DNA of 61,605 nucleotides, counting the filler, from Candidatus Woesearchaeota archaeon (lineage in GTDB: Archaea; Nanobdellota; Nanobdellia; Woesearchaeales; BM511), in NCBI GenBank assembly GCA_023266675.1. It is 4 parts of 4 records of this genome, joined end to end, with 100 filler letters (N's around TTAATTAATTAA, not from the genome) between each part and the next. Parts side by side here need not be neighbours in the genome. Positions count along the whole stretch, not along the records: positions 31,272 to 54,753 come from JAHFPP010000012.1; positions 54,854 to 61,605 come from JAHFPP010000065.1; 2 more parts are not named here. The stretch is one strand, 5' to 3'. This document shows, in pieces, positions 54,001-60,000 of the stretch. Position numbers: made by a program. The stretch's first letter is position 1. Each line of letters opens with the position of its first letter.

Positions 54001-57000
54001 GAATTATTGTTGAATTGTATCTGACTATCACTTCCTCCAGGTGTTGTTGGTATAATACATTGTACTCCTCCACTTGTCGTATTCTGAACAACCTGACCTG
54101 AAGGACATGATCCATTTCTTGCAAGTGTTGAGTTATAAGTTAATGGAACATATTTTGTATCAAGCTGTGCTGTTGTGTTATAATTAATATCATCAGCACT
54201 CCAGTTTCCTATGCTTGTTATTTTGTTGTTTAGGTCTGTGTAGTTTAATCCTACGTTGGTGTTTGTTGCGTAACTAGGTTTGTCTAAAGTCCAGTTACCA
54301 ATGCTGTTAATTTTATTGTTTAGTGTTGTATCATTATTGTACGCCAAAGTCATATTACTAGCAAGGTTTGTTGCAGAAACGTAGTTTGGTTTGTCTAGTG
54401 TCCAGTTTCCTATTGATGTTATTTTTCCGTTTAGGTCAGTGTAGTTTAGTCCTATATTTGTATTAACTAAGGTTATGTTGCCATTTAAAGCAGTATTAGT
54501 TGTATATAACGTAGTTAATTGCGCCGTTGTATTATAACTGGTTTTATCATTAGTCCAGTTTCCTATGCTTGTTATTTTATTATTTAAATCGGTGTAATTT
54601 AATCCTACATTGGTGTTTGTTGCGTAACTAGATTTGTCTGCGCTCCAGTTTCCTATTGATGTTATGGTGTTGTTTTGGCTTAATTGCTGAGCGTTATCGT
54701 TAGCAATTGTCAAATAGTTTGGTTTGTCTAAAGTCCAGTTACCAATGCTGTTANNNNNNNNNNNNNNNNNNNNNNNNNNNNNNNNNNNNNNNNNNNNTTA
54801 ATTAATTAANNNNNNNNNNNNNNNNNNNNNNNNNNNNNNNNNNNNNNNNNNNNTACATGCCGGCAGGCACATACACGCAAACACAAACATGGGTAACAAC
54901 AGCAATAGGATAAAATTTAAATTTAATAAAAAACTATCTCTTATTCTCAAGACCTTTTAGAACGTGTTCAAGCTTTAGAAGTCTGTCTTTGATTGCTTTT
55001 AGCTTTTCTTTCTTAACATTCTTGTTGTGCATCAATGTGTCATAACTTTTTTTTACGTCAAGAATATGATTCTTTATATCTTTAATTTCAGATTCTCTTG
55101 AATCTGTTTTTAACTTTTCGTCGGCTTTCTCTGCAATCCTGTTTTTTATCCAGTCATCGGATTTGTTGTGCTGCTTATTTTCTAGCTCGTTAATCTTGTC
55201 AGAAATAATCCTTTTTTCGAGTGTTGGTGAGATTTTAATTCTTCTTTCAAACTTTGTCTGATTTTTTGCTGCAAGACATAAATGATGAAAAATCTTTTTA
55301 AAATCATCTCTATTAATTACAACTTTATTATCAGCTAGTGTCTCAGCCATAGTTACCTTAAAACCCGAACATTTTTTTCTTTTGTGGAGCTTGAGGCGGC
55401 GGTGGCATTTCCATTCTTGGCAAAGGCTGCGGTCCTTGTGTTGTTGGCCCAAATGGTGACGAGAAGTCATCCATAGGTGGCATATTAAAATTAGGTGACT
55501 GAGGCATCATTGGAGGCTGCATTTCTCTTTGAGGCTGTGAGAACCTGTTTTGAGGCATCTGTTGTTCAAAATTCTGCCTTGGTTTTTGTGCACTCTCTCC
55601 ACTTTGTCTTGCTTTAAAATCGTCAAACATCTCTGCTAGCGCAACTATCCCTTTTGCAATCTTTTCATTTTGCTCTGAGAGTCTTTCAACTTTTTCAAAG
55701 AATGGTACAATCTTTTTTGACATGACATCAGTGTCATGGCTTTCAGCCTTCATCGAATCTGACGCAGTCTTGAAAAGATTCAACAAGTTATTTATTGAAT
55801 CATTGAGTTTGTCAATTGATTCTTTAAGCTCTTTGCCTTCACTGCTTGAGCCTAAAGGCGTTTTTTTAAGCCTTTCAACATCACTTTTTAAAGAATCAAA
55901 ATCTTTCTCAGGAACCATCTCATACTCATTAGCCATAAATATCAACCTCTCTTTTTAACAAAAACCTCAATATTAGCTTATATTAGACTGAAGAATTTAA
56001 ATAGTTTTTGGAAAAGACGTCCAGAATCAGTTTATAACATGTTTTAAGAATCATATTTCAGATAACTAATAAGCTTAAAATTTAATGAAACAATAAGAAT
56101 CACTTAACTAAATCCTCTATGTTTTTATTTCTTAATTCTCTTTTATGCAAATCCTGAACAGCTGCTGTTACGCTCCCTGCATAAACACCAATCATTCCGG
56201 AAGTATAATCTGGGTGCTGTGTCATTATCTCCCTTGCGCCAACTGGGTCTACTATTGCGTATAATAAAGGTGCAGCTGTAATACCTGCAATACAAGCTTT
56301 CTCTAATTTTGGCAAAACTTTTTCATCAAATCCGGGAATAATATACTTATCTACTCCTCTTGATGCAATTTGTAGTATTTTAACAACTGAGTATATCCCT
56401 GAGAAGCCAAGAGCAAAATTGCTAACCATTCCTCTCTCTTGTATAACTTGGGGTAGAGGGTCCATTACAAAATGAGACATCCCGTTTACAATATCATATA
56501 AAAACGGTTTAGTCATAACATCAATTAACATGTTTTGGTATATAAATCTTTTGTTTTTTACTACTATTAAGTAATATAAATATATTAACTTAAATTTATC
56601 TCTTATAAAAACTAATTAGAATACTTTGCTTGACAAATACAATTATAAACCTAAGAAATTATTTGTGTTCTCTAAAACTCAACCTTAATAATGTCTCTTT
56701 GGATTTTTTTGATGCATTTCTCTACTTTGTCTGTAAGTTCATGGTCTGTTGTTGCGCGAAGAATCTGCCTGTAAAGGTCTATTATCTGCCTAAATATCCT
56801 GATTATGTCGCCTTCATCAATGCTTGTGCAGTCCATAAGGTCTGCAAACTGTCCGCCTTCAAACCACATCGTGACCATCTTGTTCATCCTTGCAACGTTT
56901 CTAAAATTAAGCTTTTTCTCAGCGTACGCGTTTTCTGAAAGCGTGTCAACAATATGAAAATACGTTTTTTTGTCACCGTTCTTGAATTTATCCATTAACC

Positions 57001-60000
57001 TTTCTTCATAAACAATTGAAGCAATTATAATTGTCATCTCAAGGTCAGTGAATTTTTTATAGAGCGGGCTGCAGAATAACTCTGTTATTAACAGTTCGTT
57101 TGAATATATATGCGTTGCAAACCTTCCTTTCTCAGTCACCTTGTTTTCTTTTGAAATATAACCCATCTTTTTTAGGCGCTCAACCATGTGGTTGTATGTT
57201 GCCATTATCCTTATCTGGTGGCCGCCTTTCTTTTTTAAGTAATAGTCAAAGCTGCTTTTTAGAATTACTTCCTGCTCATCCTTTGTGTGCTTATCCATTA
57301 GGTTGATTACAGTGTTGTATGAAAGCTTGAACTGCGAGATTATAGGGTCAGTATCTTTTGAAGTGAATTCTTCAACCTTGTTTGCGTCAAAAGTTTTTCG
57401 TTCAACTAGCGCGATTGCAAGACCTTCCTTGTCTATTCCACGCCGTCCAGCGCGGCCAGCCAATTGGAAATATTCTTTTGAATTTAAAAATCTGAAATTC
57501 ATACCATCATATTTTTCTAGAGAGTGAAAGCACACAGTCCTTGCCGGCATGTTTATTCCAACAGCAAAAGTCTCTGTTGCATAAAGAACTGATATCAGCC
57601 CTCTTCCAAAAAGTGTCTCAACAATCTCTTTTAATGCTGGAAGAATGCCTGCGTGGTGAACTCCAATTCCTTTTGGGAGAATTTTTTTCATGAACTGAAC
57701 TGACTCCATGCGTCTAAGTTCTGGAGGAATCGATTTTGAGATGTAGTCAACTATATCCTCTTTTTGCTCCCGTGTTGTGAAATCGTTTTTTCTGTAAAGC
57801 TGCTCTGCAAGCTCTTCGCATTTTCTTCTTGAAAAAACAAAAAACATGCATGGAAGCTTGTCTTTGCTTTTAAGCTCATTTATTAAATCAATATGGTTTG
57901 GTATCTTTCTTTCTTCGCGCACATCATGCCTTTTTTTCTGCTTCATTGCTTTATAATAATCAGGATAGCGGTCTAGCTCAATCGATTTTCGTAGTTCAGG
58001 AATAGTTGTTATGCCAAGCTGAATATCATACAGGAAATGTTTTAGCGGCACTGCACGCTCACCGTACTTTACAACATCAACTTTGTGTTTTTTTATTGAT
58101 TCAATCCATTCTGCAAATTCCTTTGCGTTTGGGATTGTTGCTGAAAGGCAAAGAAACCTTACGTGTTCTGGCGAAAATATTATCGCTTCTTCCCAGACTG
58201 TTCCACGCTCATAATCATTTATGAAATGAATCTCATCAAAAACAATGTAGCTTAGCTGCTCTACAAGCTCGTCTTTAGTTACAAGCATGTTTCTGTAAAT
58301 CTCTGTAGTCATTATAAGAATCTGGCCGCCGTGGTTGATTGTAACGTCACCAGTCAAAAGTCCGACAGCTTCTTCGCCAAAGGATTCCTTAAACTCCTTG
58401 TATTTCTGGTTTGAAAGCGCTTTAATTGGAGATGTGTAAATAATCCTTTTATGCTCTCTTAAGAACTTATCAATCATATAATCTGCTATGAGTGTTTTTC
58501 CTGTTCCAGTTGCCGCTGAGACAACAACCGAGTTTCCGTTTTCAATAGAATTTATGGCATCTATCTGGAATTTGTCAAGCGTGAATCCTTTATATTGCAT
58601 TATATCCTCTTATAATATGTGTATGTTTTTAATTGTTTGGGTTTTTAGGCATTATTGAAAAGTTACCATACTACATCTCACTACGCAAAAACGCTTCGTT
58701 CGATTACGTCTGGCATTGCGTTATTTACTTTGTAAATAATGCAACTTATTGCACAGACGGTTAACTTTTCAATAACGCAGGATTTTTAAGAAATTAAACG
58801 ATAAGAAGCCTAATTCTTATTTCCTTTTCTCAGCTTCTTTGATAAAAGCAAGGTATTTGTCTTTTTCCTTTGAAGAATCTTTTTCAATCTTGTTAAACTT
58901 TCCAAGCATTTCTTTCTGTGTTTTTTCGCTTAATGCTTCATCAGCCATAGGATAAAGGATTTTGTCTTCCTTCATTATGTGCTCTTCAAGCAGATTTGCG
59001 TAGCCTACAGCGTTTTCAACAACTTTTTTACTGTTGTTTTCCTTTACTGCCTTTTCAAGGTTCATTACAAATTCTCTTCCAATATCGTGTTCGTGAAGCA
59101 TCTGTCCTGTTGGGTTGCAGTGCATTTTTACATCATCTTTGTTCAATTCAATAAAAAGAATATCTTCTTCTTTTGCGTGATGAAAATGGTCTGCGTAGCC
59201 TTTTATGAAATCAATTGATTTACTGAAGAATTCTTTGTCTATACTCTTTCCTTTTTCAATTGCATCGCATTCTCTTTTAAGTGCGTCAATTACCTTTATT
59301 ATGTTCTTGTGCTCAAGCGTTAACATTTGTGTTGCTGTTGTCATAAAAGAAACGATTTATGCGCTGTTTTTATATCTTTTGGTTAAGATATGCTCTTAAT
59401 TTTTTTTATTCGAAAAGATTTGTTCTAACGACCTTTTACGAAAAACGCAAGAAAATCAGGAATGATTTTCTGCGCACAGAAAACAAAAATGTTTTTTTGT
59501 GGCTCGAGCAAAAGATGGCGAGTTTATCAAAAACATAAACTCACCTATCCCTTATTCATACAACTTTGTACCAATTCTCACCATGTTGCTTCCTTCAGAA
59601 ATAGCGACTTTGTAATCGTTTGACATTCCCATTGAAAGTCTCGTCAACTCATATTCTTTTTTGTATCTGTTATACAGTTTTCTCATATCTTTGAAATAAA
59701 CCCTTGTTCTCTCAGCTTCAATGTGTGGCGCAATCATCATAAAACCTTCAATTTTGACGTTATCCAGTTTTGATATTATTTGAATTGCATCTTTAACATC
59801 TTTTTCTTCAAATCCAAACTTCTGAGATTCATTTGCAATATTCACTTGAACAAATATTTTCATAATTTTATTTTGTTTTCTTGCTTCCTTATCTATCTCC
59901 TCTGCAAGCGATACCGAGTCAACGCTTTGAATTACATGAAAAAGCTTAACTGCTTTTTTCACTTTGTTTGACTGTAAATGCCCAATCATATGCCAGTTTG

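What a model noticed while it worked through the whole genome (the two positions that open the first line are those of the whole stretch)
56672..58600. Arch-less Mtr4/Ski2 (COG4581-type) RNA helicase in Woesearchaeales, a helicase group described as absent from archaea
g00797 (642 aa) is a DExH helicase of the Mtr4/Ski2 group with the DSHCT domain but no arch/KOW insertion, distinct from Hel308 and ASH-Ski2. It is in about half of Woesearchaeales and almost no other archaea, in a genome that keeps an exosome core; nearest non-archaeal relatives are in Bacillota.
Evidence so far: Best PDB match is engineered arch-less human MTR4 (6c90) over res 6-638, E 9e-123, versus archaeal Hel308 at 1e-34 to 1e-41. 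DSHCT in at least 395 of 822 order genomes but 452 of 10117 archaea. GTDB scan: Nanobdellota hits span about 1880-1940 nt, Bacillota hits mostly 2040-2270 nt. PMC10946056 finds the COG4581 group exclusively eukaryal in its archaea-plus-eukaryote set (passages, call 151).
(Added by a program. Inside this text positions count along the whole contig: they may not be those of the stretch shown here. "Call 12" and the like, gene names such as g00115 and contig names such as C1 are that model's own, and its searches are not shown. The text may have been shortened before it was handed on; [...] marks where a part breaks off. The agent that wrote the report below was given it as the finding of a first reader that could run no searches.)

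Follow-up and report, generated by a model that had tools for sequence, protein, structure and literature searches.

The report
Archless bacterial-branch Mtr4-family helicase, Woesearchaeales
This tiny archaeon carries an intact, stripped-down RNA helicase of the Mtr4/Ski2/HelY family that a recent archaeal survey did not report, but it groups with bacterial rather than eukaryotic relatives and nothing found ties it to the exosome.

Summary
The gene is real: 642 aa, motifs intact, DSHCT present, no arch; its confident model matches arch-less human MTR4 (TM 0.85). Orthologs occur in 101 of 200 sampled genomes of its order and 3 of 101 of another order of the class. Trees place the family in a clade with Bacillota, Muiribacteriota/Wallbacteria, Poribacteria and Omnitrophota proteins; grouping with eukaryotic Mtr4/Ski2 is rejected (AU p<0.001). 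Arch loss is not unique: bacterial sisters keep the stalk without the barrel, and an independently arch-less form is in 49 of 61 genomes of one bacterial phylum. No exosome link: Rrp41 is present with or without it (99/101, 95/99), no exosome gene neighbours it in 60 loci, and the MTR4 loop that docks on Rrp4 is shortened. Best reading: an old bacterial acquisition working as an accessory 3'-5' RNA/RNP-remodelling helicase. 'Absent from archaea' also fails elsewhere: Hodarchaeales and Hermodarchaeota encode full-arch members, not demonstrably the ancestors of Mtr4/Ski2. This scan noted the same helicase before on other DNA (three notes), with the same reading.

The parts
56672..58600 (-). Gene for arch-less COG4581-type DExH helicase, 642 aa (P0001; G000:C42:1819-3747)
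58606..58610 (-). AGAGG, Shine-Dalgarno-like, 5 nt before the ATG
   Evidence: seen in sequence; function inferred
58118..58573 (-). RecA1 domain (residues 10-161) with end of Q motif, motif I (30-36), DEIH (122-125), SAT (153-155)
   Evidence: Pfam DEAD; K35, D122, E123, H125, S153 invariant in 65 orthologs
57437..57676 (-). RecA2 core (Helicase_C match 309-388) with the strand-separating beta-hairpin K363-R370 and motif VI Q379-G388
   Evidence: hairpin strands 362-364/369-371 in the model; K363, G366 in 65 of 65, R370 in 60 of 65
57167..57250 (-). Site of the missing arch inside the winged-helix domain (residues 451-478): two helices joined by a five-residue linker
   Evidence: insert length -3 to +5 in 65 of 65 orthologs versus about 110-125 in bacterial sisters and 200-350 in eukaryotes, HelY and Asgard
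56687..57145 (-). DSHCT / ratchet domain (residues 486-638)
   Evidence: PF08148 E 1.8e-26
56753..56815 (-). Ratchet helix (596-616): R601, Q605, D608 at the positions of Mtr4 R1026, R1030, E1033; the following loop is three residues shorter than in MTR4

Best explanation
An intact, monomeric SF2 helicase of the COG4581 family reduced to the four-domain ring (RecA1, RecA2, winged helix, DSHCT ratchet). It most likely binds a 3' single-stranded RNA end, hydrolyses ATP, pulls the RNA 3' to 5' through the ring and splits duplex or strips protein on the RecA2 beta-hairpin, like bacterial HelY and arch-less Mtr4. It entered the ancestor (or an early branch) of this archaeal order from a bacterial sub-family that had already lost the arch barrel, lost the remaining stalk, and was then kept or lost lineage by lineage. 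Without an arch it lacks the known adaptor-binding surface, so it probably acts as a general accessory RNA/RNP remodeller (rRNA maturation, ribosome recycling or RNA turnover), at most feeding the exosome indirectly. Shown: sequence, motifs, fold, distribution, clade. Inferred: RNA substrate, polarity, direction of transfer, cellular role.
For: Motifs invariant across 65 orthologs; fold. Yeast Mtr4 without arch unwinds RNA at near wild-type rate (0.49 vs 0.59 per min; PMC4267639 passages), so an arch-less core can work. Ratchet fourth turn is acidic (D608 in 65 of 65) as in Mtr4/Ski2 (E1033) and most HelY rows, not the W599 of the DNA helicase Hel308. 82-row mixture-model tree: the 13 archaeal rows are one group (SH-aLRT 99) inside a 44-row clade (100) otherwise of bacterial or unnamed rows; 60-row tree with the arch columns: same clade 99.9, archaeal rows sister to the Bacillota rows at 99. 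AU rejects grouping with eukaryotes (p 3.5e-4 and 8e-8) and with Asgard rows (p 5e-6 and about 0). Sister groups' 110-125 aa insert aligns to both stalk ends of the full arch (hhalign 95-97% to HelY-type arches), so the archaeal state is derived and cannot be the donor state. Presence is fixed by family (f89 28/28, f120 12/12, f30 5/5; f55 0/6, f45 0/4, f50 0/4). Recurrent neighbours, though rare, include a DEAD-box helicase (5 of 60 loci, all co-oriented) and a YlqF-like GTPase (3 of 60, adjacent); Streptomyces HelY is ribosome-associated (PMC7157823 passages).
Against: No biochemical or expression data. In yeast, deleting the arch together with R1030A or E1033A abolishes unwinding, and this family has Q rather than R at the R1030 position in 35 of 65 and D for E, so it could be a translocase or RNP remodeller with weak duplex unwinding. 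The branching order inside the clade is unstable: 'archaeal rows sister to all bacterial members' is not rejected (p 0.47 for the free 49-row tree; p 0.053), so the donor is not fixed and the direction rests on the stalk argument and on distribution. Mantel test of helicase against Rrp4 distances in 19 genomes was inconclusive (rho 0.16, p 0.086), so vertical inheritance inside the order is not shown. Neighbourhood signal is weak (no family in more than 6 of 60 loci).
Confidence: 0.62

Rival explanations
1. Dedicated exosome cofactor: the acquired helicase was recruited to sit on the Rrp4 cap of the archaeal exosome and thread unwound RNA into it, converging on the Mtr4/Ski2 role.
For: Exosome operon (SBDS, Rrp4, Rrp41, Rrp42) is intact in this genome. 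In eukaryotes the helicase core, not the arch, touches EXOSC2/Rrp4 (PMC10411580 passages). An ASH-Ski2-type query (four N-terminal cysteines) finds no ortholog in this genome, so the known archaeal exosome-linked helicase (PMC7144898 passages) was not found here. 3' to 5' polarity would fit.
Against: Rrp41 is in 95 of 99 genomes that lack the helicase and 99 of 101 that have it. None of 538 neighbouring ORFs in 60 loci matches Rrp4, Rrp41, Rrp42, SBDS or proteasome alpha. The loop carrying human MTR4 Ile1014, which contacts EXOSC2 Met40, is three residues shorter and has T/S there. The closest relatives live in bacteria, and an arch-less form is in 49 of 61 genomes of one bacterial phylum; that bacteria have no archaeal-type exosome is established knowledge, not tested here.
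Confidence: 0.17
2. Ancient archaeal inheritance: COG4581 was in early archaea, survives in this order and in Asgard lineages, and is the archaeal root of Mtr4/Ski2.
For: COG4581-type proteins do exist in Asgard genomes (Hodarchaeales, Hermodarchaeota). The archaeal group is deep (45-71% identity across the order) and may be sister to all bacterial members of its clade.
Against: Woesearchaeales+Asgard and Woesearchaeales+eukaryotes are rejected by 64-104 log-likelihood units in two alignments. Not found in 151 genomes of a euryarchaeal-titled phylum; 1 of 101 in the Aenigmatarchaeota-titled phylum, on a giant-virus-like contig; 3 of 101 in another order of the class, nested among the Woesearchaeales rows.
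Confidence: 0.06
3. DNA helicase that backs up Hel308, which is split into two genes throughout the order.
For: Without the arch the protein has a Hel308-like size and ring (TM 0.72-0.77). Hel308 is split here: stand-alone RecA1 gene in 76 of 81 genomes.
Against: Both Hel308 halves are intact and cover the model end to end (12-217 and 223-716 of 739) and occur with or without this helicase. The protein lacks Hel308's W599 and C-terminal HLH domain and has the Mtr4-type ratchet.
Confidence: 0.1
4. Binning artefact: a bacterial contig in an archaeal bin.
For: Contig is 6,752 bp; GC3 0.38 against 0.30 +/- 0.055 for 241 long ORFs of the genome.
Against: Orthologs in 101 of 200 genomes of the order, among them single-contig genomes G081 and G092 and G316; the best hits come from the same family; the archaeal rows form one clade.
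Confidence: 0.01

Closest known systems
Eukaryotic Mtr4 (MTREX/Dob1) and Ski2, especially the engineered arch-deleted human MTR4 (PDB 6C90)
   Same: Four-domain ring, DSHCT, Q motif, DExH, KxDG..xR hairpin, ratchet R1026 position and acidic fourth turn; TM 0.85.
   Different: No arch, no N-terminal extension, R1030 position mostly Q, shortened Rrp4-docking loop; different branch of the family tree.
Bacterial HelY (Actinomycetota, cyanobacteria-like rows; M. smegmatis HelY biochemistry, Uson et al. 2015, recalled and named in scan note e1-4435556, not read)
   Same: Prokaryotic COG4581 helicase with DSHCT, acidic D at the ratchet fourth turn and 'EGD' helix start.
   Different: HelY rows mostly carry a full 200-256 aa arch and form a separate clade.
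Uncharacterised COG4581 helicases of Bacillota, Muiribacteriota, Wallbacteria, Poribacteria (stalk only) and Omnitrophota/Planctomycetota (arch-less)
   Same: Same well-supported clade; 38-50% identity.
   Different: Most keep a 110-125 aa stalk; the arch-less Omnitrophota group lost it separately (grouping with the archaeal family rejected, p 0.003 and 0.004).
Archaeal Hel308 and ASH-Ski2 (PMC10946056)
   Same: Ski2-like SF2 core.
   Different: Far below Hel308 cut-offs; no N-terminal four-cysteine domain; DSHCT present; this genome has its own (split) Hel308.

Membership tests
COG4581 / DSHCT group (Mtr4, Ski2, HelY) | RecA1-RecA2 DExH core with intact motifs Q, I, II, III, VI | tested here: met
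COG4581 / DSHCT group (Mtr4, Ski2, HelY) | C-terminal DSHCT (PF08148) ratchet domain | tested here: met
   93.4 bits, cut-off 22.7
COG4581 / DSHCT group (Mtr4, Ski2, HelY) | Best hit to the CDD COG4581 profile at >=60% coverage (the paper's criterion) | not testable with these tools
   no CDD/COG library on hand; assignment rests on Pfam, PDB and trees
Eukaryotic Mtr4/Ski2 subfamily | Arch (stalk + KOW/fist) insertion | tested here: not met
Eukaryotic Mtr4/Ski2 subfamily | Groups with Mtr4/Ski2 in a tree | tested here: not met
   AU p 3.5e-4 and 8e-8
Eukaryotic Mtr4/Ski2 subfamily | Ratchet R1026, R1030, E1033 | tested here: inconclusive
   R 63/65; Q 35 or R 27 of 65; D 65/65; Ski2 also varies at R1030
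Eukaryotic Mtr4/Ski2 subfamily | Physical and functional coupling to the exosome | not testable with these tools
   needs biochemistry; genomic proxies negative
Bacterial HelY | Arch with SH3-like barrel and membership of the HelY clade | tested here: not met
Bacterial HelY | RNA-dependent ATPase with 3'-5' translocation (recalled) | not testable with these tools
   inferred only
Hel308 | Scores above NCBIfam Hel308 cut-offs; W599; HLH domain 5 | tested here: not met
   169.5 of 1200 bits for NF040935; D608 at the W599 position by the mapping
ASH-Ski2 (COG1202) | N-terminal four-cysteine domain | tested here: not met
   protein starts 7 residues before the Q motif; feature per PMC10946056 section 24

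The most novel reading that the evidence does not exclude
Woesearchaeales recruited a bacterial HelY-family helicase as a minimal, adaptor-free exosome motor, an independent invention of the Mtr4/Ski2-exosome partnership; and, separately, the full-arch COG4581 proteins of Hodarchaeales/Hermodarchaeota are the archaeal precursors of eukaryotic Mtr4 and Ski2 (their arch is the best prokaryotic profile match to both; not rejected in the core-only test, p 0.14 and 0.10, nor with P0205 included in the full-length test, p 0.37). The probability given is for at least one of the two holding.
Probability: 0.28. Interest if true: 0.82.

Novelty: new variant of a known kind. Interest (0 to 1): 0.48.

Why it matters
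It corrects a published boundary (COG4581 not found in archaea) in two places: an arch-less family in half of a large DPANN order, and full-arch members in Asgard lineages. The family shows a natural reduction series (full arch, stalk only, none), and a 642-aa natural minimal Mtr4-like core is a clean tool to ask what the arch is for and whether a bare core can serve an exosome. It does not, on present evidence, reveal the origin of eukaryotic RNA surveillance.

Tried and rejected
Complex prediction of the helicase with this genome's Rrp4 (alignments of 65 and 18 rows): verdict 'no answer', score 0.00; not used for or against binding. Constrained trees came from single fast searches; a constraint that the best tree already satisfies scored 8 log units worse (tree 4), so rejections with differences of 24-37 units (Asgard+eukaryotes p 0.024; arch-less bacteria+archaea p 0.004; Muiribacteriota/Wallbacteria+archaea p 0.012) are soft. 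Mantel test inconclusive. Beta-CASP survey uninformative: 197 of 201 genomes positive, this genome one of 4 misses. Csl4 (PF10447) not found here but the model rang in only 1 of 14 controls; PF01612 nuclease not found. Plasmid search: 2 actinobacterial records only. The AlphaFold model of the Asgard protein was poor (pLDDT 60.6, 7 rows) and supports only the order of secondary-structure elements. No GTDB handle for an Asgard genome could be reached, so Asgard frequency and gene context were not measured. Literature searches that found no description of this family: 0 papers; only PMC10946056; nothing on it in titles or abstract starts; 0, split Hel308. Subscription papers and bioRxiv supplements are not covered.
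Full report
1. Observation. Window 56672-58600 (minus) is one 642-codon ORF on a 6,752-bp contig of a 1.22-Mb, 95.9% complete genome. Pfam gives DEAD (10-161), Helicase_C (309-388) and DSHCT (486-638) and neither MTR4 arch family. The best PDB sequence is arch-deleted human MTR4, 6c90_A (E 9.4e-123, one stretch 6-638); full-length MTR4 aligns in two pieces that leave out its arch; archaeal Hel308 chains score 6e-41 or worse. An AlphaFold2 model from 65 orthologs is confident (pLDDT 89.3, pTM 0.83) and joins helix 451-459 to helix 465-478 by five residues; Foldseek TM is 0.85-0.87 to arch-less MTR4 chains and 0.72-0.77 to Hel308. 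Motifs Q, I, II (DEIH), III (SAT) and VI are invariant or nearly so in 65 of 65 rows.

2. Distribution. 101 of 200 genomes of the order (>=80% complete) have an ortholog at E<1e-60 (counted); 85 of 165 among those >=90% complete and <=5% contaminated (hand count from the table). Two positives (G105, G193) are flagged unpublished; the fraction does not depend on them. Presence follows families: f89 28/28, f120 12/12, f63 7/8, f30 5/5, f42 10/22, f76 1/9, f55 0/6, f45 0/4, f50 0/4. Another order of the class: 3 of 101, nested among the order's rows. Aenigmatarchaeota-titled phylum: 1 of 101, and that hit (L050) groups with giant-virus helicases on a 3-kb contig whose other ORFs look like a RING protein and an Erv-type oxidoreductase (labels recalled). 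A euryarchaeal-titled phylum: 0 of 151. These are samples, not proofs of absence. Three loci titled 'Methanosarcinales' are probably mislabelled: the two put in trees fall inside the family and two genomes checked are 1.1 and 1.4 Mb.

3. The published claim. PMC10946056 (abstract; sections 5, 18 and 24 read whole; supplement by keyword only; figures not seen) found no COG4581 protein in 294 archaeal genomes. Its table has no row with 'Woese', 'AR15', 'AR20' or 'Nanoarchaeum'; it lists only genomes with hits, so I cannot tell whether the order was sampled. It required 60% profile coverage and removed 53 archaeal sequences. So the gap is plausibly one of sampling or filtering (inference). No paper describing this family came up.

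4. Where it sits. A scan of 1.84 billion representatives (best 150 listed, those of 560-600 aa or more used), named loci, metagenome loci (79 loci), giant-virus loci and two more protein searches gave 261 rows for FastTree, 82 of them for IQ-TREE LG+C20 PMSF on 590 core columns, 49 for AU tests, and 60 for a tree with 792 columns including the arch and leaving out the viral rows. All agree: the archaeal family is one group (99-100) inside a clade (99.9-100) that otherwise holds Bacillota, Muiribacteriota and Wallbacteria (names), Poribacteria, Omnitrophota and many unnamed rows; group labels were extended from the named rows to unnamed neighbours by tree position. Eukaryotic Mtr4/Ski2, HelY-type proteins and Asgard proteins lie outside. 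AU tests with 10,000 replicates reject archaea+eukaryotes (p 3.5e-4 core, 8e-8 full) and archaea+Asgard (5e-6, about 0). Archaea+Bacillota is the best 49-row tree and has support 99 in the 60-row tree (three rows each), but the 82-row tree leaves the fork open and 'sister to all bacterial members' is not rejected (p 0.47; 0.053). The top PDB hit therefore reflects what has been solved, not kinship.

5. The arch. Insert length at the arch site: this family -3 to +5 (29 of 29 tree rows, 65 of 65 in the alignment); Omnitrophota-type 53 of 55 rows <=15; Bacillota median 112 (5 of 50 <=15); Muiribacteriota/Wallbacteria 107-122; Poribacteria-type median 118; HelY median 208 (3 of 30 <=15, one or more of them possibly partial); Asgard 223-251; Mtr4 median 252; Ski2 median 260. 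Profile comparison shows the 110-125 aa inserts align to the two stalk ends of full arches and skip the barrel (for example Poribacteria-type 1-155 against 1-233, probability 96.9), and many keep the CxxC near the stalk end. So there is a series full arch, stalk only, none, and the last step happened more than once: a single origin with the Omnitrophota group is rejected (p 0.003 and 0.004), and arch-less single rows occur in Bacillota (P0166) and Actinomycetota (P0400; names). In the phylum of L008 (its closest proteins are named Omnitrophota) 49 of 61 genomes have a match, nearly all with open frames of 626-698 aa. Since the bacterial sisters keep a stalk that is homologous to the full arch, the present archaeal form cannot be their donor; bacteria to archaea is the economical direction (inference).

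6. Mechanism. Shown: an intact ATPase core, the RecA2 hairpin (K363 and G366 65/65, R370 60/65) and a ratchet helix with R601 (63/65), Q or R605 (35 and 27 of 65) and D608 (65/65). By the human alignment and the spacing given in PMC4267639 (passages) these are the positions of Mtr4 R1026, R1030 and E1033; that paper reports glutamate at the last position in Mtr4 and Ski2, tryptophan in Hel308, R1030 as the poly(A) reader, near-normal unwinding by arch-less Mtr4, and loss of unwinding when arch deletion is combined with R1030A or E1033A. Inferred: RNA-dependent ATPase and 3' to 5' translocase, without fixed poly(A) preference and without the arch surface that the eukaryotic enzymes need in vivo (PMC3592479, abstract only). 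How well it unwinds duplexes is open.

7. Exosome link. The genome has SBDS-Rrp4-Rrp41-Rrp42 in one operon on another contig (Rrp4 above its NCBIfam cut-off, Rrp41 276.9 against 318.7; SBDS and proteasome labels recalled from sequence and gene order). But Rrp41 is in 194 of the same 200 genomes: 99 of 101 with the helicase, 95 of 99 without. In 60 loci (up to 4 kb each side, 538 ORFs) nothing matches the five operon proteins; the most frequent neighbour families are an unidentified one (6 loci), a DEAD-box helicase (5, all co-oriented), another unidentified one (4) and seven families in 3 loci each, among them a YlqF-like GTPase directly adjacent. An earlier, partly overlapping set gave the GTPase in 6 of 46. 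Human MTR4 Ile1014 contacts EXOSC2 Met40 (PMC10411580, passages); counting from the C-terminus of P0502 and taking 1042 aa for human MTR4 (recalled), it lies in the loop after the ratchet helix, which is three residues shorter here with T or S. On the other side, an ASH-Ski2-type query finds no ortholog in this genome, so the helicase tied to the exosome network in Thermococcales (PMC7144898, passages) was not found. Net: no positive evidence; a weak tilt towards translation or ribosome functions, in line with ribosome association of Streptomyces HelY (PMC7157823, passages).

8. Asgard homologs. Two of ten representatives looked up belong to clusters named Hermodarchaeota/Promethearchaeota (P0224) and Hodarchaeales (P0261/P0418). 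A profile search (best 120 of 7,994 listed) put nine proteins far above all others, four of them named Hodarchaeales, Hodarchaeota or Heimdallarchaeota LC_3 (P0430; P0261 by its cluster mate), on contigs up to 116 kb; most of the following rows were eukaryotic MTR4. LC_3 is among the genomes of PMC10946056; whether P0430 is one of its two listed LC_3 proteins or was filtered out I could not determine. These proteins have a full arch: helices, a beta barrel, helices in a low-confidence model; atlas neighbours of the insert carry SH3_HelY and MTR4 barrel families; hhalign scores are 118.6 to Mtr4 and 112.3 to Ski2 arches, above the best HelY group (99.2, 78.3), though profile depths differ (3 to 24 rows). 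The trees do not confirm ancestry: the best full-length tree joins HelY with eukaryotes (93.7), strict Asgard+eukaryotes has p 0.024 there and 0.14 on the core, and 0.37 when the unnamed P0205 is included. The small number of clusters fits a patchy gene. I could not check the contigs' origin or neighbours.

9. Verdict. Real, intact, archaeal in residence and bacterial in kinship: a new arch-less variant of a known family, function inferred. The scan recorded the same family and much the same reading on three other genomes; these notes are not independent support.

Noticed in passing
P0244, P0261/P0418, P0430, P0431, P0224, P0414, P0415: Hodarchaeales, Heimdallarchaeota LC_3 and Hermodarchaeota encode 850-1010 aa COG4581-type helicases with a full stalk-plus-barrel arch; best prokaryotic arch match to Mtr4 and Ski2, tree position unresolved.
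   Followed up: partly
G000:C20:11748-12413 (L263) and G000:C67:13732-15342 (L264): Hel308 is split into a 219-aa RecA1 gene and a 512-aa remainder on different contigs; the stand-alone RecA1 frame (197-304 aa) is in 76 of 81 genomes of the order. Not in the split-gene table of PMC3655853 (passages); noted many times by this scan.
   Followed up: partly
L050:1-3037: A contig in an Aenigmatarchaeota-titled genome whose helicase groups with giant-virus helicases and whose neighbours look like a RING protein and an Erv-type oxidoreductase: probably a mis-binned giant-virus fragment.
   Followed up: partly
L089-L095: Giant-virus DSHCT helicases (about 800 aa) are sister to eukaryotic Mtr4/Ski2 (99) and have a ~90-aa insert with no profile match to any arch.
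   Followed up: partly
phylum of G415; P0277-P0396: An arch-less 625-660 aa DSHCT helicase is nearly a core gene of Omnitrophota-type bacteria (49 of 61), an independent arch loss.
   Followed up: partly
L015, L016, L017, L019: Limnochordales-type Bacillota have a 44-aa insert, an intermediate between stalk-only and arch-less.
   Followed up: no
L049:7824-12882: In an Acidobacteriota genome the helicase appears as two ORFs about 2.3 kb apart, perhaps interrupted by an insertion.
   Followed up: no
G000 whole genome: No beta-CASP gene found although 197 of 201 genomes of the order sample have one; probably an assembly gap.
   Followed up: no
window 54934-55945: Two overlapping minus-strand ORFs downstream; the 195-aa one has a coiled-coil N-part (weak FlaC-like match below cut-off) and a proline/glutamine-rich tail; unannotated.
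   Followed up: no
window 53067-54753: Repeat-rich surface-protein-like ORF with recurring 'ITSIGNW' units running to the contig end.
   Followed up: no
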